Virus genome (UHGV): UHGV-1384413
Reading direction: 5' to 3' (one strand)
DNA length: 64,000 nucleotides
DNA from: a virus
Shown: positions 43,092 to 49,452 of the stretch, one piece after another
Layout: each line of letters opens with the position of its first letter
How positions within the stretch are numbered: the first letter of the stretch is position 1
Position numbers and translations under genes: made by a program
The notes under the pieces: generated by a model
What the model saw: the letters and a program-made list of their open reading frames with translations, nothing else
Databases searched by the model: none
What the model was told of the DNA's origin: nothing

Positions 43092-43562
43092 TTAATCTAG
43101 AACAACACCGCCTGACTTTTTAAACACCTCGATCAACTTTTCGATCTTCTGTTCGTGCTGACCATACCCTGCACCGGGGAGGCTTGCCCATCGGGATCTG
43201 CAAAGATGGATGGCCTGATGAATACGACCTTCATCAATATCATCGAGCGCCTTGCACTCACGGATCAATTGTAGTGCGATCTTATCCTGACTGGCAGGGC
43301 CAAAATCTGGTAATCCTAACTGTTTCATATAGTGTTTAGCAAACTTCTCCAAAACTTGGTAGCGCCCCGCAGCAGAGGAGGTAAGTTTAGCATTTAGCTT
43401 AACGTACACACCTGGATGCTTACTGTAATCGCTAAACAGCTTGCCACCGACTATGACATCATAGCCCCGATCCTTGGTAGGTTGTCTACCATTATCTGTA
43501 CCTTCTGAATATGCGATCATGTCCAAGAAAGCTTTTCGTTGAACATTTTTATCAAGTCTCAT
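43092..43562 (-). CDS. endolysin, lambda R-like lytic transglycosylase (GH24-like)
   Basis: QRKAFLDMIAYSEGTDNGRQ, GYDVIVGG, WASLPGAGYGQ blocks closely parallel lambda R as recalled. Confidence 0.85.
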   Translation of the reverse strand: MRLDKNVQRKAFLDMIAYSEGTDNGRQPTKDRGYDVIVGGKLFSDYSKHPGVYVKLNAKLTSSAAGRYQVLEKFAKHYMKQLGLPDFGPASQDKIALQLIRECKALDDIDEGRIHQAIHLCRSRWASLPGAGYGQHEQKIEKLIEVFKKSGGVVLD

Positions 43563-43686
43563 TTTTCATACTCTCCAATTTACTCATAACTAACCCGATC
43601 AACAACACTGCATAATGTGGTTATGTAGGTGCCAATTGAAAAACCATCATTCAATTGGCTACCGTTACCTACTAAACCTTCCTACA

Positions 43687-44970
43687 TCATTCCAGAACCT
43701 CCCAAGTGTCAGGGTTAACATTTCGGACGCAGATGCCGACAGGGAATTGGTAGTTGTTGTCTTCTGTCCTTGCTTGATATTTGAAGGTGACAAACTTGCC
43801 GATCATTTCCTGCATCCTGTCATAGCTACGCTCCTCGTGCGTGCCTTTCATCTTCATTTTAACAACGATACCTTCCTTGTCAACGCAGATAAGAACACCT
43901 TCATCATTCTTATCTTTCTCAACGTCAATAACTTTCACCTCAGCATCGTTGAACTTTTTCCATTTCAATGCTTCAGATGTTCGCTGACCATATTCATATT
44001 TACCGCAGAAGTTACGCATGATAGTACCTTCATATCCTTCGGACATGAATACACCAACAGATTCTTCGCAATGATCAACTGTGTACGCAAGCTCTGCGTC
44101 AACAACCTTGATATGGTCAAGCATCAGGGTGGTAATGGTATCTTCTGCATCCATAAGATCCTTGCATCGTCCAGATTCTGTTTCTGGATCCCACCATACC
44201 TTGTCACTAGGGATGTCGAAAATATGATACTCTAAGTCATAGCTACAGTACCCTCCGTAACGCAAATCATCACGAATAGGCTCAACATCAACAGGAATAT
44301 CTACCTTATTGAAGTTTTTGTATGTTGATAAGCCTGCCTTAATTGCGGCATGACGGCGTTTTTTATCTGCCTCGTAGTCTTTATCGATCTCGGCCTGAAT
44401 CTCTTCCTGTGTGCGCCACCGTTTAGCAAGAGACACTATTTTCTGCAGAGGCAGACCATGAATATAGATCTCTCCGTCGAGCTGTTTAATCCCGGTGGTG
44501 AAGTGGAAAGAACGAAGTTGCTCCAGAAGCTTTCCTTGAATAGGGTAGGACTTATTACCACGGGAAATAAATTTAGGCTCACCGTTTTGGAAAACAACCA
44601 GTAGACGAAGGCCATCTAATTTACGCAAAATCCAGCAAGGTAATTTAAGTGCCTTTCCACGCTTCAGGTAGTCATGCACCAACATGGGTAAAAGGTCAAC
44701 ACCCTGCTCGCAATCTTCCATATTTTCAACATATCCCAGACGGACTTGTTTTTCCCACTTACTGATCGCTTCCAGCTCAGCCTGTTGCTCAGCTGTAGTT
44801 TCATTGGCACGACCCACGTTCTTAGGTGTGCAGATCGTCTCTTTGTATTGCAGTTTACCATCAAGCTTGCCAAACTCTACAATAACCTTATCACCATCCG
44901 TGAATACTTTCCACTGCTGGTAGCTGCCATCTTTGTTCAGTGCGTACAGTGTTGTTTTGATCTGATGCAT
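43687..44970 (-). CDS. ATP-dependent DNA ligase
   Basis: Motif I KLDGLR (KxDGxR), motif IV-like EGYEGTIMR, motif V-like LKWKKF. Confidence 0.7.
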   Translation of the reverse strand: MHQIKTTLYALNKDGSYQQWKVFTDGDKVIVEFGKLDGKLQYKETICTPKNVGRANETTAEQQAELEAISKWEKQVRLGYVENMEDCEQGVDLLPMLVHDYLKRGKALKLPCWILRKLDGLRLLVVFQNGEPKFISRGNKSYPIQGKLLEQLRSFHFTTGIKQLDGEIYIHGLPLQKIVSLAKRWRTQEEIQAEIDKDYEADKKRRHAAIKAGLSTYKNFNKVDIPVDVEPIRDDLRYGGYCSYDLEYHIFDIPSDKVWWDPETESGRCKDLMDAEDTITTLMLDHIKVVDAELAYTVDHCEESVGVFMSEGYEGTIMRNFCGKYEYGQRTSEALKWKKFNDAEVKVIDVEKDKNDEGVLICVDKEGIVVKMKMKGTHEERSYDRMQEMIGKFVTFKYQARTEDNNYQFPVGICVRNVNPDTWEVLE

Positions 44971-45239
44971 TACTCAGCCTCTTCCTTAAAAATTTTAAAC
45001 ATCTCTTCTTTGCTCATTACCAACCAGTCTCCCATAAAGTCAACTAACCAATCCCCTTGGTACAAGACCAGGTTACCAAACGGCTCGACAAGCTCACACA
45101 TGCGAAGAATATCTCTGGTCCGAACAGGTGACGGTGTAAACACACCTGTATCAATCCACCGTTGTAGATCAGATACTGATGAAGAGCTTCCGTCAAACTG
45201 GTGTGCTTCTACAGGTTTAGCAAGATTAAATAACGGCAT
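44970..45239 (-). CDS. hypothetical protein (89 aa)
   Basis: ORF in coupled array. Confidence 0.45.
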   Translation of the reverse strand: MPLFNLAKPVEAHQFDGSSSSVSDLQRWIDTGVFTPSPVRTRDILRMCELVEPFGNLVLYQGDWLVDFMGDWLVMSKEEMFKIFKEEAE

Positions 45240-45534
45240 TGCAGTCCTCCTTCTCTAATAAGTCTTTTATCGGGTAAACAAGCAGGTGCGGATCGTAATA
45301 ATTTATAGTTTTATTCTGCCACACTATGAACTTAATTACAACTAAATTTACCACATCTTTATCTCCATGCAGTCCAACACACAGATTTGTCCATATTTTG
45401 TGGTTGAATACTTTGCTGTCGATGTAGATCTTAGTGTCAAACTTATCCTCTATCCTACCTATAAGTTTAACCAATTCTTTCATCTGATCCCCAAACACAG
45501 CATCGTTTTCAAGATCTCTGGAGTGCTTGTACAT
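45226..45534 (-). CDS. hypothetical protein (102 aa)
   Basis: ORF-track ORF. Confidence 0.45.
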   Translation of the reverse strand: MYKHSRDLENDAVFGDQMKELVKLIGRIEDKFDTKIYIDSKVFNHKIWTNLCVGLHGDKDVVNLVVIKFIVWQNKTINYYDPHLLVYPIKDLLEKEDCNAVI

Positions 45535-45574
45535 AACTTTCTACCTCACTTGCATACTTTCCTAAACAAGTAAA

Positions 45575-45598
45575 GCCGGGATCGCCCCGGCTATGTTA
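45575..45598 (-). terminator. putative rho-independent terminator
   Basis: GCCGGG-GCGATC-CCGGC hairpin followed by T-rich tract on minus strand. Confidence 0.5.
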
Positions 45599-46312
45599 TT
45601 AAATATATTCTGTTACATCCTTGAAGCTTGAAGGCTTCATAATCTTACCTTTACTGTCGAGGAATATGATAACTTTATTTCCGTTGTAGAATTCTTCTTT
45701 AGCAACAAAACCTTCATAGCGACCATCAAAGCGTCGCTCAAGATCTTTAATCTCCAACTCGATAAGTTGTTCAGCAGGCATATCTGCACTGGCACCGTGT
45801 GAATACCGCAGATGGTTGACGCGTGCAAACTTGCTGTCATTAGATTTTAGAACCTTCCGCATCATCCCGCACACATCACCGCGAAGCTGGAACAGCAAAG
45901 CTGTTGACAACTCTGCTAAGCGGTAAGCAGACGCTCTTTGCTTAGAGGTATTTTTCGCAGCGATCAGTGTATCATAAAATTCACCGATCTTAAACTTAAG
46001 ACCTCGCGGATTATCAAACAGGTTTGACCACTTTTCATGGTTATCGTTAACAAGATAAGCGGCATAACTTGTGACAACGTGAAGATCGCAGGCCTCTTTT
46101 AGGAGATGATCCCCACCATCACCTTTCTCCAACTCTTCCAAAACTTCATTGAACTCTTCCTCAATGAAACTCAGCTGAAGTTCGAATGGTGTGTATGATT
46201 TTTTCACTTTAGCTGCTACACGGTTCCAATTTTCCACCCAGTTGGCAGACCAAAGGTAGTTTTCAGGCTGAGACAGTTTTTCCAAGTTGTCAATCAGTTT
46301 AGTATTCAGCAT
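45599..46312 (-). CDS. MazG-like nucleotide pyrophosphohydrolase candidate
   Basis: EEEFNEVLEELE...EACD fits the EExxE...ExxD MazG pattern. Confidence 0.35.
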   Translation of the reverse strand: MLNTKLIDNLEKLSQPENYLWSANWVENWNRVAAKVKKSYTPFELQLSFIEEEFNEVLEELEKGDGGDHLLKEACDLHVVTSYAAYLVNDNHEKWSNLFDNPRGLKFKIGEFYDTLIAAKNTSKQRASAYRLAELSTALLFQLRGDVCGMMRKVLKSNDSKFARVNHLRYSHGASADMPAEQLIELEIKDLERRFDGRYEGFVAKEEFYNGNKVIIFLDSKGKIMKPSSFKDVTEYI

Positions 46313-46326
46313 TAAAAGGCCTCCGC

Positions 46327-47088
46327 TTACAGTTCCATAAAGTTTTCTACGATGTCAATGAATGTTTTATCAGAGAAAGCGTCAACAGCCCCGTTAAACC
46401 AAACTGGGATGCCGCGATCCTCATACTGGTAAATGTCACTACGTGAAATGCCATTCTCCCCTAAATGCTGTGAGTCGTATTTGTTAACGATCAGCAGTTT
46501 GGTCCCCTTATTACAGGCAGGGAATAGCTCCCAGTTAAAATTGATAACTGTGTTGGAGCACCCTATAAGGATAACCATATCATTGCTCGTCAGAGAAGTC
46601 AACAGGTCATACATGTCTGTATACTTTGGAGCTACTTCTCCGAAGAACACGACATTAGGCTTAACCCAAGTATACTTGCTTGCATCTACCTCAGAGTATC
46701 CAATGTCTTTAATGACGTTACTCCCTTCATCATCCTCGTAGACTATTTCTGGCAAATATCCGTGGACATGTAAAATATCTTCATGTTTTACACCAGCACG
46801 CTCCAGCAAATCATCTACATTGGTTGTCAGGTTGATCACGCGACCAGACCAGCGGGAATACCATTCAGCGATCCGGAGATGTGCAAGGTTAGGATCAACA
46901 CTGCCCAGAGCTACACGCCGTGCATTGTAAAAGTCATGAACCTTATAGTAGTTCTTGGCAAAGGTGTGGATGTTACACACCTCATCGATGCTGAAATTCT
47001 CCCACATTGCAGTGCCACCAGATCGGAAAGTTGGGATACCAGATTCAGCGCTCAAACCAGCACCGGAGATAATGATCAGTCGTCGCAT
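46327..47088 (-). CDS. Sir2-family (sirtuin-like) NAD-dependent protein lacking zinc-ribbon cysteines
   Basis: GAGLSAESGIPTFRS, FYNARR, TTNVDDLLERAG, HVHG, VVFFGE blocks match sirtuin catalytic core. Confidence 0.7.
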   Translation of the reverse strand: MRRLIIISGAGLSAESGIPTFRSGGTAMWENFSIDEVCNIHTFAKNYYKVHDFYNARRVALGSVDPNLAHLRIAEWYSRWSGRVINLTTNVDDLLERAGVKHEDILHVHGYLPEIVYEDDEGSNVIKDIGYSEVDASKYTWVKPNVVFFGEVAPKYTDMYDLLTSLTSNDMVILIGCSNTVINFNWELFPACNKGTKLLIVNKYDSQHLGENGISRSDIYQYEDRGIPVWFNGAVDAFSDKTFIDIVENFMEL

Positions 47089-47096
47089 AAGTGTCC

Positions 47097-47447
47097 TCAG
47101 TAGATGTTTTGTTTAATCTCTATTCCAAACTTTTTAAACGAGTCAGCAGCAAGCATGAATTTACGAGCAGCTGATGGGTTAGAAGTATGCACGAAAATCT
47201 TCACGTTGTCAACTACAGGAGGCTTACCAAATATAAATTTTTCCTCCAGCATAGATAGGCAATCGTACCCTTCAAATACCTCTCCAAGGTCGTTGTCCAT
47301 GTGCCACTCAGAAACGCGCCTGTAGAGCTTTCCCTTATCGTTAATAAAATCCATAAACTCAGAGGAATTCTTTAGCCAAAGAGCATCTGGGAGCCCATAA
47401 TTTGACGGATCTCTCAAGTCATCCAGCCACACAATCAACTTCTTCAT
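47097..47447 (-). CDS. hypothetical protein (116 aa)
   Basis: ORF between Sir2-like and Rnl-like genes. Confidence 0.5.
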   Translation of the reverse strand: MKKLIVWLDDLRDPSNYGLPDALWLKNSSEFMDFINDKGKLYRRVSEWHMDNDLGEVFEGYDCLSMLEEKFIFGKPPVVDNVKIFVHTSNPSAARKFMLAADSFKKFGIEIKQNIY

Positions 47448-48358
47448 TGCATATAGTCCTCGTTGTGGAAATAGTAGTCAAGTATCTCACGACGTTCTTG
47501 CTCCAGGAGGCAGTTCCACACATCTTCTGTGTAATTGCTACGAATGAAGTTTACCATGCCATAAAACTCTTCGTCAACACGTTTAAAGATATCATCATCC
47601 CAAATCTTCCAAGCTTTACCCCTCATTACGGCCTTCCGTGCCAAATAGTATGGAGACTTGATCTTCAGCTGCAAATCATAAGGGTAGTAAGGCTTACGAA
47701 TCATATACCCTTCACCTCTTGTTTCTGCAGCTAATTCTTTTGCATAGCTGAACGGAATTTCACGCACAGTGTGAGGACGTTTTGCACCAAGGTATTTGGC
47801 AATCCCATCTAAAGCTGCTTCTGGTAGCATTATTCCAGAATCATTATATCTGCAACCTATCAAATATGCGCCATGATCTTCCTGAACAATATGCGGATCT
47901 GAAGGGTGGCAAATTTCAAACATGAATGTCATGTTTTCATGGCCCATAACCCTCTTGATAAGATCTAAATTACCACATTGCTCCTGGATTGTTTCTTTTG
48001 CGAGGTTACAATATGGAGAATCAAGAGACCCGGTTGTTGAGAACAATAGTTCACCTTTATGAGATGATACCACACCAAGGAATCCGTTCTTTTTCTCTAC
48101 CGCCGTCACAAGTTTATTGTCAGGCAGGTTGGTGGAATTTTCTCCCAAGTTAAACACTTTTGTGAAGGGCCATGCCACAACATTTCCTTCATTACCGACA
48201 ACAATGCCTCGGCACTCCAGCAAACGAGGAGACAAATGCCATAAATTGTTGTAGAATACTTTTCTGGCATATTTATAGATCTTTAACCCAAGATCCGGGT
48301 AATATCTGCTGGTTACAAGACCTTTGTCAACTAGGTCGTCTGCATTAAAATACTTCAT
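47444..48358 (-). CDS. RNA ligase-like nucleotidyltransferase (Rnl family candidate)
   Basis: KKNGF (KxNG motif I variant as in tRNA ligases); divergent from polynucleotide kinase gene. Confidence 0.5.
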   Translation of the reverse strand: MKYFNADDLVDKGLVTSRYYPDLGLKIYKYARKVFYNNLWHLSPRLLECRGIVVGNEGNVVAWPFTKVFNLGENSTNLPDNKLVTAVEKKNGFLGVVSSHKGELLFSTTGSLDSPYCNLAKETIQEQCGNLDLIKRVMGHENMTFMFEICHPSDPHIVQEDHGAYLIGCRYNDSGIMLPEAALDGIAKYLGAKRPHTVREIPFSYAKELAAETRGEGYMIRKPYYPYDLQLKIKSPYYLARKAVMRGKAWKIWDDDIFKRVDEEFYGMVNFIRSNYTEDVWNCLLEQERREILDYYFHNEDYMQ

Positions 48359-48479: not shown

Positions 48480-48890
48480 ATGTCTAAAATGCTATATATC
48501 GTGCGTGGTCTACCAGGGTCTGGCAAATCAACACTGGCAAATGCGCTATCTTTAGAAGGTCTGTATCCACATTTTGAGAACGATATGTTCTGGTACGACG
48601 ATGACGGCAATTACAATTGGGATGCAAGTAAAGTAACACTTGCAGCAAAATGGTGCAAAGATAACGTAGAAGATATGATGCGTATGGGCTACGACCGTAT
48701 CGTGGTAAGTAATACGTTTACAAAAGAAAAATATGTGCAAGAATATATTGACATGGCGATCAGTCATGGATATAGTTATACCGTGATCGTGGTTGAAAAC
48801 CGCCATGGTAATAAAAGCATTCATGATGTTCCAGACAGGGTTGTGGATCGTATGGAACGCCAGCTTAAAAACTGCATTAAACTTAAATGA
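48480..48890 (+). CDS. polynucleotide 5'-kinase-like P-loop protein
   Basis: N-terminal YIVRGLPGSGKSTLA Walker A typical of Pnk kinase domains; ACGGAGAG RBS. Confidence 0.6.
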   Translation: MSKMLYIVRGLPGSGKSTLANALSLEGLYPHFENDMFWYDDDGNYNWDASKVTLAAKWCKDNVEDMMRMGYDRIVVSNTFTKEKYVQEYIDMAISHGYSYTVIVVENRHGNKSIHDVPDRVVDRMERQLKNCIKLK

Positions 48891-48897
48891 GGAATGT

Positions 48898-49452
48898 ATG
48901 AAATACTTTGTAACAAGCGACACACACTTTCTCCACCAGCGGGTAATGGAGTTCGACTCATGTCAAAAACACAGATCTCAGTATGATCACAATCTTGACA
49001 GTATGAATGCGGGAATCATCACCAAGTGGAACTCTGTTGTGTCACCTGCAGACACTGTGTTTCACTTGGGGGATATTGCGTGCACTAATGATAAGAATAT
49101 CAACAAATTGCTTCCAGATGTTCTAAATATGTTGAACGGACATATTATTCTTGTTCGTGGTAACCATGACACAAGGACGACTGTCAGAATTATGAAAGAG
49201 TTCGGTCATGAGGTTGTAGATTATTACGAGCTTCGCCACAACAAGAATTTGATCTGTATGAGCCATTACCAGTTTGCAAAGTGGAACAGAAAGCCTCACG
49301 GATCAGTCCAACTGTTCGGTCATGCTCACGGAACCACACAGCAGTTGTTTGGCAGGCAGTTTGATGTCGGTTGGGATGTGTGGGGGAGACTCTTACCATT
49401 AGAAGAGGCATACCGTATTGCAATGAGTCTTGCTATTGACAGCGGGGAGTAA
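48898..49452 (+). CDS. calcineurin-like metallophosphoesterase
   Basis: SDTHF, GDIA and GNHD motifs; GAGGA RBS. Confidence 0.7.
   Translation: MKYFVTSDTHFLHQRVMEFDSCQKHRSQYDHNLDSMNAGIITKWNSVVSPADTVFHLGDIACTNDKNINKLLPDVLNMLNGHIILVRGNHDTRTTVRIMKEFGHEVVDYYELRHNKNLICMSHYQFAKWNRKPHGSVQLFGHAHGTTQQLFGRQFDVGWDVWGRLLPLEEAYRIAMSLAIDSGE

What the first reader, a model, noticed from the sequence alone, without database searches (positions are those of the whole stretch)
46327..47447. Sir2-like protein without zinc-ribbon cysteines, next to an unknown 116-aa gene
The 253-aa product carries the sirtuin catalytic core blocks (GAGLSAESGIPTFRS, TTNVDDLLERAG, HVHG, VVFFGE) but the segment where sirtuins place the Cys4 zinc ribbon has no cysteines. 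Zinc-less SIR2 domains are typical of NAD-consuming or ADP-ribosylating enzymes rather than deacetylases. In a phage, next to RNA-repair and MazG-like genes, it could manipulate NAD+ pools or modify host proteins; the adjacent 116-aa ORF (47097-47447) may be a functional partner.
Basis: partly seen in the sequence, partly recalled or inferred. Interest (0 to 1): 0.55.

Follow-up and report, generated by a model that had tools for sequence, protein, structure and literature searches.

The report
Zinc-less phage sirtuin in RNA-repair operon
A CobB-like sirtuin that has lost its zinc-binding cysteines sits beside a receiver-fold "cREC" gene in the RNA-repair operon of an rV5-like E. coli phage; the arrangement was described computationally in 2022, but what the enzyme does has never been tested.

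Summary
The minus strand at 46327-47088 encodes a 253-aa SIR2-family protein with all four quoted motifs and no cysteine where sirtuins place the zinc ribbon.

- **Sirtuin class.** The protein resembles the deacylases E. coli CobB and SIRT5 (class III), not defence-type NADase SIR2 domains. It keeps the catalytic His, the NAD-binding motifs and the class III YxxR motif. The ribbon module is still predicted to fold.
- **The 116-aa neighbour.** It is not unknown. It is a cREC domain (Pfam PF20274) with a CheY-like fold.
- **Operon.** Rnl1-like RNA ligase, cREC, Sir2 and a MazG-like gene are tightly packed and end at a terminator-like hairpin. A kinase and a metallophosphoesterase are transcribed divergently.
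- **Prior description.** Iyer et al. 2022 described exactly this "phage V5" neighbourhood. They proposed that the sirtuin removes RNA 2'-phosphates with NAD+, like Tpt1/KptA.
- **Added here.** Loss of the cysteines coincides with TQNID→TTNVD in an enterobacterial-phage subclade. NAD+-salvage genes often lie nearby in relatives. The orthologue in phage Bas54 is dispensable on E. coli K-12.

I found no biochemical test. The gene family and its context are already known, so interest is modest.

The parts
46327..47088 (-). Sir2 (253 aa): a class III-like sirtuin that lacks the zinc-ribbon cysteines and has TTNVDD in place of TQNID. GAGxS, F21-R22, Y54-x-x-R57, N90, D92, H109-G110 and FGE are retained.
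   Evidence: Pfam and PHROG matches. PDB sequence matches to CobB and SIRT5. AF2 model with pLDDT 89.8. Foldseek top hit CobB, E=4e-18. Family conservation.
47097..47447 (-). cREC protein (116 aa): a receiver-fold 'cyclic-phosphate processing' domain. Conserved residues are D9-D10, D51/D53, T88-S89-N90 and K96.
47444..48358 (-). Rnl1-like RNA ligase (304 aa), first gene of the run. Its stop codon overlaps the cREC start codon (ATGA).
   Evidence: Pfam RNA_lig_T4_1 E=1.1e-14. PHROG 562 E=1.9e-65. Sequence.
45599..46312 (-). MazG-like nucleotide pyrophosphohydrolase (237 aa), last gene of the run. It starts 14 nt after the Sir2 stop, behind a GGAGG.
   Evidence: PHROG 671 E=5.4e-22. Annotated 'nucleotide pyrophosphohydrolase' in phage HMD-6. 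No Pfam hit. Sequence.
45574..45592 (-). Terminator-like GC-rich hairpin followed by a T-rich tail, 7 nt after the MazG-like stop codon. It marks the likely end of the four-gene transcription unit.
   Evidence: Consensus scan: 8 stem pairs, 6 of them GC. Pattern match only.
48480..48890 (+). P-loop polynucleotide-kinase-like protein, transcribed divergently from the ligase.
   Evidence: PHROG 2071 and PHROG 505 'polynucleotide kinase'. HMD-6 annotation. The homologue in a relative carries Pfam AAA_33.
48898..49452 (+). Calcineurin-like metallophosphoesterase (184 aa), a candidate 3'-end healing enzyme.
   Evidence: PHROG 547 E=5e-51. The homologue in a relative carries Pfam Metallophos.
43687..45534 (-). 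Co-conserved downstream block after the terminator: two small unknown ORFs (45226-45534 and 44970-45239) and an ATP-dependent DNA ligase (43687-44970).
   Evidence: Pfam DNA_ligase_A_M and OB_2. All three are found again beside Sir2 in Mydovirus-like loci.

Best explanation
**Shown.** The window comes from an rV5-like (Vequintavirinae) E. coli phage. The finding is the middle of a four-gene run: Rnl1-like RNA ligase, cREC, Sir2, MazG-like pyrophosphatase. The genes are packed for coupled translation and end at a terminator-like hairpin. A polynucleotide kinase and a metallophosphoesterase are transcribed divergently. The Sir2 is a catalytically intact, derived class III-like sirtuin. It has lost the zinc cysteines but keeps the predicted ribbon fold.

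**Inferred, following Iyer et al. [quoted passage not shown]
1. cREC opens the cyclic phosphate.
2. The kinase phosphorylates the 5' end.
3. The ligase seals the break.
4. The sirtuin uses NAD+ to remove the remaining 2'-phosphate.

Step 4 would follow sirtuin-type chemistry. The phosphate oxygen attacks C1'' of NAD+ and displaces nicotinamide. [quoted passage not shown] The invariant Tyr54/Arg57 pair, which binds a carboxylate in SIRT5 and CobB, would bind a phosphate instead.
For: **Identity and operon.**
- The region is 99.4% identical to phage ECP32, with the same gene order as in more than 100 rV5-like genomes.
- The ligase stop and cREC start overlap as ATGA. An 8-nt spacer with GAGGA and a 14-nt spacer with GGAGG separate the next genes. 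A terminator-like hairpin follows.

**Active enzyme.** GAGxS, F21/R22, N90, D92, H109/G110 and FGE are invariant in 45-121 homologues. The model is confident.

**Recurring partners of analogous function in three unrelated contexts.** I reproduced all three independently.
- rV5- and Mydovirus-like phages: ligase, cREC, kinase, phosphoesterase and MazG-like gene.
- T5-like phages: HAD_SAK_2, the 'Swiss-army-knife RNA repair' phosphatase, next to Sir2 in about 30 loci.
- Jumbo phage 7t3: 2H phosphoesterase, Sir2, Nudix, cREC.

Here 2H substitutes for cREC and Nudix for MazG, which points to cyclic-phosphate and ADP-ribose chemistry.

**Further support.**
- No Tpt1/KptA homologue occurs in the window or in any fetched locus.
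- The hypothesis and this exact neighbourhood are published (PMC9503650).
- The cassette is dispensable on laboratory K-12, as expected for a conditional counter-defence function (Bas54 HIDEN-SEQ).
Against: - No biochemical test exists in the literature I could search.
- The protein looks like a deacylase. Its best matches are CobB and SIRT5, and the YxxR succinyl-lysine motif is intact.
- The core is acidic like CobB (pI 5.15 against 5.27), unlike basic KptA (9.37).
- Kinase, metallophosphoesterase and ligase could already complete a T4-type repair that never produces a 2'-phosphate (established knowledge). E. coli also has its own KptA (my recollection).
- cREC is not an obligate partner. 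T5-like phages have Sir2 without a detectable cREC: 1014 phage records carry Sir2 against 357 with cREC. In phi92-like phages Sir2 lies about 33 kb from the cassette.
- Adjacency within related myoviruses may partly reflect inherited synteny.
Confidence: 0.4

Rival explanations
1. It is an ordinary CobB-like protein lysine deacylase (deacetylase or desuccinylase) that the phage uses to reset acylation of host or phage proteins. Its place in the RNA-repair operon would be incidental, or its targets would be the repair enzymes themselves.
For: - The closest sequence and structure matches are CobB, Sir2Af1 and SIRT5 (E about 5e-21; Foldseek E=4e-18, TM 0.74-0.84).
- All deacylase catalytic residues and the class III YxxR motif are invariant.
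- The zinc-module fold is retained.
- The core is acidic like CobB.
- In T5-like phages and ESCO5 the gene sits among nucleotide-metabolism or unknown genes, with no RNA ligase adjacent.
Against: - Association with cyclic-phosphate or phosphate-processing enzymes (cREC, 2H, HAD_SAK) and ADPr-type pyrophosphatases (MazG, Nudix) recurs in three independent contexts.
- The protein scores far below the NCBIfam CobB cut-offs (120.9 against 243; 102 against 320).
- The clade-wide Q→T change in TQNID and the loss of zinc indicate a functional shift.
- The host already has CobB.
Confidence: 0.3
2. It is part of an NAD+/ADP-ribose metabolite counter-defence module. Sir2, cREC and MazG or Nudix would act on soluble NAD-derived molecules (defence signals or NADase products), in concert with phage NAD+ reconstitution genes, rather than on RNA.
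For: - NAD+-salvage or reconstitution genes lie close to this Sir2 or its cassette in several lineages. An NAPRTase-family plus PRPP-synthetase-family pair lies 5-7 kb away in Mydovirus-like phages and next to the cREC cassette in phi92-like phages.
- NAMPT and NMNAT lie 2-5 kb upstream in 7t3. An NAMPT-like gene lies near Sir2 in L060, L063 and L076.
- The 2H neighbour in 7t3 scores as Acb1-like, an anti-CBASS family.
- cREC was proposed to act on ADPr-derived cyclic phosphates (PMC7824862).
Against: - This window contains no NAPRTase or Prs homologue.
- The NAD-salvage pair stays with the cREC cassette when Sir2 is elsewhere, so it is not tied to Sir2.
- Nearby NAD salvage is equally expected for any NAD-consuming enzyme.
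- No sirtuin is known to act on such soluble substrates (my knowledge).
Confidence: 0.15
3. It would be a zinc-less NADase or protein ADP-ribosyltransferase that depletes NAD+ or modifies host proteins during takeover.
For: The zinc cysteines are absent. Some sirtuins ADP-ribosylate proteins (literature cited in PMC9503650).
Against: - It hits no defence SIR2 model.
- No defence-type SIR2 or SirTM structure appears among the matches listed.
- The operon contains no macrodomain partner, a point also made in PMC9503650.
- More distant phage relatives that keep CxxC...CxxC are clearly the same family, so zinc loss is a late, lineage-specific event rather than a class marker.
- A phage NADase would work against the NAD+-rebuilding genes that many relatives carry.
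Confidence: 0.08

Closest known systems
Phage 'sirtuin-centred RNA-repair' neighbourhood, type 2 (Escherichia phage V5 / Proteus phage Mydo), Iyer, Burroughs, Anantharaman & Aravind 2022, Viruses 14:1977 (PMC9503650)
   Same: The gene set is identical: T4-like RNA ligase, cREC, sirtuin, nucleotide kinase, MazG-family pyrophosphatase and calcineurin-like phosphoesterase. The window is itself an rV5-like phage.
   Different: Nothing differs in gene content. The paper's main text does not mention the loss of the zinc cysteines or the TQNID→TTNVD change. Its function proposal is computational only.
E. coli CobB / human SIRT5 / Sir2Af1 (class III sirtuin deacylases)
   Same: These are the best sequence and fold matches. 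Local identity to the CobB core is about 32% over 186 columns. GAGxS, FR, NxD, HG, FGE and the YxxR acyl-carboxylate motif are shared. The core is similarly acidic.
   Different: The phage protein has no zinc-binding cysteines and has Thr in place of the Gln of TQNID. It has a clade-specific invariant set (W29, C38, E114, G130, K143, A153-P154-x-Y156). It scores below the NCBIfam CobB equivalog cut-offs. It is embedded in an RNA-repair operon.
Tpt1/KptA RNA 2'-phosphotransferase
   Same: The resemblance is in proposed function only. [quoted passage not shown] Both are accompanied by cyclic phosphodiesterase and Nudix-type enzymes.
   Different: The fold is unrelated (ART fold against Rossmann sirtuin). 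There is no sequence homology. Tpt1 is basic (pI 9.4) and this protein is acidic (pI 4.9). The activity is untested.
Defence-associated SIR2 NADases (ThsA, DSR1/2, SIR2-HerA, SIR2-APAZ) and SirTM ADP-ribosyltransferases
   Same: All belong to the SIR2 superfamily.
   Different: The phage protein hits no PADLOC model. None of these families appears among the closest PDB matches listed. It has no sensor, HerA, pAgo or macrodomain partner.

Membership tests
SIR2/sirtuin superfamily (Pfam PF02146) | Profile match above the curated threshold, covering the whole catalytic core | tested here: met
   94.8 bits against a cut-off of 24; residues 9-181 match profile positions 1-178 of 180.
SIR2/sirtuin superfamily (Pfam PF02146) | NAD-binding and catalytic motifs: GAGxS, FR loop, (T)QNxD, catalytic HG, FGE, GxS | tested here: met
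   All are present and invariant in the family, except that Gln of TQNID is Thr (TTNVDD).
SIR2/sirtuin superfamily (Pfam PF02146) | Rossmann fold plus small helical and ribbon module | tested here: met
   AF2 pLDDT 89.8 with strands 110-118, 124-128 and 142-146. Foldseek TM 0.74-0.84 to CobB.
Class III sirtuins (CobB/SIRT5) | Closest relatives by sequence and structure are class III members | tested here: met
   CobB, SIRT5 and Sir2Af1 at E=5e-21 to 4e-19, against Sir2Tm at 5e-13 and SIRT2 at 1e-11. The Foldseek ranking gives the same order.
Class III sirtuins (CobB/SIRT5) | YxxR motif that binds the acyl carboxylate | tested here: met
   F53-Y54-N55-x-R57-R58. Y54, R57 and R58 are invariant in 45 and in 121 sequences.
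Class III sirtuins (CobB/SIRT5) | Cysteine-ligated structural zinc in the small domain | tested here: not met
   No conserved cysteine between HG and FGE in the query or the family. More distant phage relatives do have CxxC...CxxC.
Class III sirtuins (CobB/SIRT5) | NCBIfam CobB equivalog or subfamily score cut-offs | tested here: not met
   120.9 against 243 (NF001753); 102.2 against 320 (NF040867).
Class III sirtuins (CobB/SIRT5) | NAD+-dependent lysine deacylase activity | not testable with these tools
   This needs enzyme assays.
Defence-type SIR2 NADases | Match to the SIR2 models of ThsA, DSR, SIR2-HerA or SPARSA | tested here: not met
   No PADLOC family at E<=0.01.
Defence-type SIR2 NADases | Fused or adjacent sensor or partner (SLOG, HerA, pAgo/APAZ) | tested here: not met
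   The neighbours are an RNA ligase, cREC, a MazG-like gene, a kinase and a phosphoesterase.
SirTM (macrodomain-linked ADP-ribosylating sirtuins) | Operonic macrodomain partner | tested here: not met
   No Macro domain in the operon. Also stated in PMC9503650.
cREC (Pfam PF20274), for the 116-aa ORF | Profile match above the curated threshold | tested here: met
   53.3 bits against a cut-off of 27. All homologues carry PF20274.
cREC (Pfam PF20274), for the 116-aa ORF | Receiver (CheY-like) fold with the acidic pocket: DD after strand 1, D after strand 3, T/S after strand 4, K after strand 5 | tested here: met
cREC (Pfam PF20274), for the 116-aa ORF | Found with RNA-repair or NAD-processing genes, not with a histidine kinase | tested here: met
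   The operon with RNA ligase and Sir2, with the same context in relatives. No histidine kinase was seen in any locus.
cREC (Pfam PF20274), for the 116-aa ORF | Cyclic-phosphate phosphodiesterase activity | not testable with these tools
   This is a prediction only (PMC7824862, PMC9503650). No solved structure was found by sequence.
Tpt1/KptA RNA 2'-phosphotransferase | Homology to the Tpt1 fold or Pfam PTS_2-RNA | tested here: not met
   A KptA probe, validated against PDB Tpt1 entries at E=5e-44, finds nothing in the window or in about 99 loci. The Sir2 has a different fold. Only 'works like' is claimed.
Tpt1/KptA RNA 2'-phosphotransferase | [quoted passage not shown] | not testable with these tools
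   This needs biochemistry or tpt1-delta complementation.

The most novel reading that the evidence does not exclude
The zinc-less phage sirtuin clade is a nucleic-acid-directed sirtuin. It would be an NAD+-dependent RNA 2'-phosphotransferase that evolved from a CobB-like deacylase and converged on Tpt1/KptA chemistry, with cREC as a new metal-independent cyclic phosphodiesterase built on a receiver fold. The TQNID→TTNVD change and the loss of zinc would mark the switch of substrate from acyl-lysine to RNA phosphate.
Probability: 0.35. Interest if true: 0.75.

Novelty: already known. Interest (0 to 1): 0.33.

Why it matters
If the published prediction is right, these roughly 1000 phage sirtuins would be the first sirtuins shown to act on RNA. 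They would also be a second, unrelated solution to 2'-phosphate removal. cREC would be a receiver-fold phosphodiesterase. Together they would define an NAD+-dependent branch of phage tRNA repair that counters host anticodon nucleases, and they would help explain why so many of these phages carry NAD+-rebuilding genes.

If the protein is instead a plain deacylase, it shows that phages reset host protein acylation.

Either way, the sequence-level finding is not new. The gene is annotated in hundreds of genomes and its context has been published. What remains valuable is a well-defined, cheap biochemical experiment.

Tried and rejected
- **Defence-type SIR2.** PADLOC gave no hit. Rejected.
- **Solved structures for the neighbours.** Sequence searches of the PDB with cREC, the RNA ligase and the MazG-like protein found nothing significant. 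I could not decide whether the ligase is T4 Rnl1-like or Trl1-like, which would require a 2'-phosphate.
- **cREC domain fusions as Rosetta stones.** Ten longer cREC-containing representatives showed no second Pfam domain. Uninformative.
- **The 122-aa ORF after Sir2 in phage 7t3 as a cREC.** hhalign probability 0.1%. Rejected. The real cREC there is the next-but-one ORF.
- **Neighbours of Sir2 in Phapecoctavirus ESCO5 and Vibrio phage D484.** No Pfam domain and only unknown-function PHROGs. These contexts neither support nor contradict the RNA-repair link.
- **Sirtuin as an RNA deacetylase (ac4C).** A literature search for CobB plus ac4C returned only unrelated reviews. Dropped.
- **Experimental work on phage sirtuins or cREC.** None found. 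The NARP3 paper mentions only host Sir2-HerA.
- **NARP1-like genes or a Tpt1 homologue in the window.** Absent. The rest of the phage genome, outside the window, was not checked.
- **Promoter for the four-gene run.** The sigma-70 consensus scan found no convincing minus-strand promoter upstream of the ligase. The start of transcription is undefined.
Full report
**1. What is there**

ORF listing and sequence confirm a 253-aa ORF at 46327-47088 (-) and a 116-aa ORF at 47097-47447 (-). The 2.9-kb region is 99.4% identical to Escherichia phage vB_EcoM-ECP32. It is at least 80% covered in 119 phage records, mostly rV5-like Vequintavirinae, where the larger ORF is already annotated as a Sir2-family deacetylase. 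In the well-annotated relative HMD-6 the minus-strand order is DNA ligase, two small hypothetical genes, nucleotide pyrophosphohydrolase, SIR2, 'cyclic-phosphate processing receiver domain-containing protein', RNA ligase. A polynucleotide kinase and a phosphoesterase are transcribed divergently.

**2.

- The 253-aa protein matches Pfam SIR2 (E=7.6e-27) and PHROG 2162 (E=1.2e-108).
- Its three cysteines (C38, C177, C192) all lie outside the HG...FGE segment.
- In the HMMER alignment with E. coli CobB the zinc-site cysteines of CobB have no counterpart.
- In 121 homologues down to 49% identity, the only recurrent cysteine in residues 111-143 is at position 142, in 48 of 121. Four other positions carry 1-2 cysteines each.
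- The AlphaFold model (pLDDT 89.8) still predicts the three-stranded module (strands 110-118, 124-128, 142-146), at block-mean pLDDT 94-97 over residues 101-150. The ribbon appears to have become zinc-independent rather than deleted.

**3. What kind of sirtuin it is**

- PDB sequence search ranks E. coli CobB, SIRT5 and Sir2Af1 first (E about 5e-21 to 4e-19), ahead of Sir2Tm (5e-13) and SIRT2 (1e-11).
- Foldseek gives CobB (E=4e-18, TM 0.74-0.84), then Sir2Af1 and SIRT5.
- No defence-system SIR2 model in PADLOC matches.
- NCBIfam CobB models match but far below their cut-offs.
- Invariant residues include GAG, S16/G17, F21/R22, Y54/R57/R58 (the class III YxxR motif), N90/D92, H109/G110 and F148/F149/E151.

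The protein is therefore a divergent but catalytically complete class III-like sirtuin.

**4. A clade-level change**

I aligned Sir2 ORFs from 76 IMG/VR loci and four GenBank phages. More distant phage sirtuins (L063, L064, L065, L068, L075) keep TQNxD and CxxC...CxxC. The enterobacterial-phage clade has TTNVDD (or TANVSD) and no cysteines. That clade comprises rV5-like, Mydovirus-like, T5-like, phi92-like, 7t3 and KVP40-like vibriophages. Loss of zinc and the Gln→Thr/Ala change therefore go together and are derived. The main text of the 2022 paper does not mention either.

**5. The 116-aa ORF**

- It matches Pfam cREC_REC (PF20274, E=4.5e-14).
- Its homologues all carry that domain.
- The alignment conserves D9-D10, D51-N-D53, H87-T-S-N-P91 and K96.
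- No relative has a solved structure by sequence.
- The family is large, with 1323 clusters at 50% identity at E<=1e-3, and is mostly stand-alone.

cREC was named and predicted to be a cyclic-phosphate phosphodiesterase by Iyer et al. 2021 (PMC7824862). I found no experimental test.

**6. Operon structure**

- The ligase stop overlaps the cREC start (ATGA at 47444-47447).
- The cREC stop is 8 nt from the Sir2 ATG, with GAGGA between them.
- The Sir2 stop is 14 nt from the MazG-like ATG, with GGAGG between them.
- A GC-rich hairpin with a T-rich tail lies 7 nt after the MazG-like stop (45592-45574, minus strand).

This is direct sequence evidence for one transcription and translation unit: ligase, cREC, Sir2, MazG-like.

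**7. Context elsewhere**

- *rV5- and Mydovirus-like phages (135-150 kb).* They carry the full set beside Sir2: ligase, cREC, kinase, phosphoesterase, MazG-like gene and DNA ligase.
- *T5-like phages (about 30 loci).* They have Sir2 followed by a HAD_SAK_2 'Swiss-army-knife RNA repair' phosphatase (Pfam E=3e-19) and two DUF7415 genes, near ribonucleotide reductase and PhoH.
- *Jumbo phage 7t3.* The order is 2H/Acb1-like phosphoesterase, Sir2, an unknown gene, Nudix, cREC. The cREC is a 109-aa ORF annotated as a helicase (hhalign probability 91.8%, E=7e-7).
- *phi92-like and Phapecoctavirus phages.* The cREC cassette and Sir2 are about 33 kb apart on the same contigs. The ESCO5 Sir2 neighbours are unrecognisable.

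In total, Sir2 relatives occur in 1014 phage records and cREC in 357. cREC is therefore a recurrent but not obligate partner.

These three neighbourhood types are exactly those published by Iyer et al. 2022, who name 'Escherichia phage V5' as the prototype of the type seen here (PMC9503650).

**8. Mechanism**

The recurring substitution of analogous enzymes is the strongest argument that this Sir2 clade works on phosphate-bearing RNA ends or on ADP-ribose phosphate by-products. The substitutions are cREC or 2H or HAD_SAK, and MazG or Nudix. The published proposal is a Tpt1/KptA-like removal of a 2'-phosphate.

I add a chemical argument, which is inference. Both sirtuins and Tpt1 start with an oxygen nucleophile attacking C1'' of NAD+ and continue with attack by the ribose 2''-OH. 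[quoted passage not shown] The YxxR pair is a ready-made anion site.

No Tpt1 homologue is present in the window or in any fetched locus.

Against this:
- The enzyme looks like CobB in every testable respect, including an acidic core (pI 5.15 against 5.27 for CobB and 9.37 for KptA).
- Kinase, phosphoesterase and ligase could complete a T4-type repair without ever making a 2'-phosphate.

**9. The NAD+ theme**

- NAPRTase-family plus PRPP-synthetase-family gene pairs lie 5-7 kb from Sir2 in Mydovirus-like phages. They resemble the published NARP1 pair, which I recall from the literature and have not tested. The same pair lies next to the cREC cassette in phi92-like phages.
- NAMPT and NMNAT lie just upstream in 7t3.
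- The window itself has none.

This fits any NAD+-consuming role and keeps the metabolite rival alive.

**10. Experimental hint**

In the HIDEN-SEQ preprint (10.1101/2025.11.20.689424), phage Bas54 is a V5-like phage with the same gene order.
- The sirtuin bas54_0207 is hit at 48 of 51 TA sites and is classed non-essential.
- The cREC bas54_0208 is hit at 16 of 21 sites and is classed 'intermediate'.
- The RNA ligase, kinase, phosphoesterase, MazG-like gene and DNA ligase are classed non-essential on E. coli K-12.

This agrees with an accessory, conditionally useful cassette. The slightly worse tolerance of cREC insertions is too weak to interpret, with only 21 sites and a value close to the threshold.

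**11. Verdict**

The gene, its family, its partner and the neighbourhood are already known and have a published functional hypothesis. The new elements are descriptive: zinc loss coupled to TTNVD, retention of the ribbon fold, NAD-salvage adjacency, and two annotation errors. The open question is biochemical and is directly testable.

Noticed in passing
L083 1-1949; L082 1376-4107; L023, L024, L028, L031, L049, L053, L058 and L085-L089 (about 0.5-3.8 kb into each locus): In Mydovirus-like and phi92-like relatives, an NAPRTase-family gene plus a PRPP-synthetase-family gene is transcribed divergently right next to the cREC/RNA-repair cassette. The pair looks like the NAD+ reconstitution pathway NARP1. 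The window has no homologue of either gene.
   Followed up: partly
L080 6672-7001 (Salmonella phage 7t3, MK773491 135497-135826): A 109-aa ORF annotated 'RNA-DNA and DNA-DNA helicase' is really a cREC domain (hhalign probability 91.8%; LDDLRD, FDHDL and VHSANP motifs). It completes a cluster of 2H, Sir2, Nudix and cREC.
   Followed up: yes
window 47097-47447 as annotated in MK883718 (ECP32) and MW748998: In some GenBank records the cREC ORF is labelled 'RNA ligase 1 and tail attachment protein', apparently copied from the adjacent ligase gene.
   Followed up: no
L078 7165-7671 (Escherichia phage EscoHU1): PHROG 18062, named 'Sir2 (NAD-dependent deacetylase)', matches the C-terminal half of the HAD_SAK_2 phosphatase next to Sir2, not a sirtuin. 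This is probably annotation spill-over inside that PHROG.
   Followed up: no
GenBank records MG065676, MG065672 and MG065656 ('Campylobacter phage') and OR848287 and OR848470 ('Listeria phage LM 4-14-1'): Records named as Campylobacter or Listeria phages carry Sir2 or cREC genes that group with E. coli rV5-like, phi92-like and T5-like phages. Two of them (MG065676, MG065672) are more than 90% identical at protein level to the window's genes; MG065656 is 46% identical (cREC), OR848287 58% (Sir2) and OR848470 27% (Sir2). The host labels look doubtful.
   Followed up: no
L029, L032, L040, L049, L054, L079 (Sir2 ORFs), between query residues 47 and 48: Several T5-like and phi92-like Sir2 proteins carry a 20-30-residue insertion, often acidic, in the helical small domain. 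It is absent from the rV5-like protein.
   Followed up: no
L078 7674-8507 (T5-like phages; also L003-L022): Two tandem paralogous DUF7415 genes (PHROG 2502, function unknown) always follow the Sir2 and HAD_SAK_2 pair in T5-like phages.
   Followed up: no
window 43562-43687, compared with L001 4318-5034: Phage HMD-6 has an HNH endonuclease gene inserted between the lysozyme and DNA ligase genes. The window has only about 125 bp there, so the homing-endonuclease insertion is absent.
   Followed up: no
Bas54 gene bas54_0208 (orthologue of window 47097-47447): In published transposon data, cREC tolerates insertions less well (16 of 21 sites, 'intermediate') than Sir2, the ligase, the kinase or the MazG-like gene, which are all non-essential. 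This could hint at a toxic intermediate when cREC is missing, or it could be noise.
   Followed up: partly
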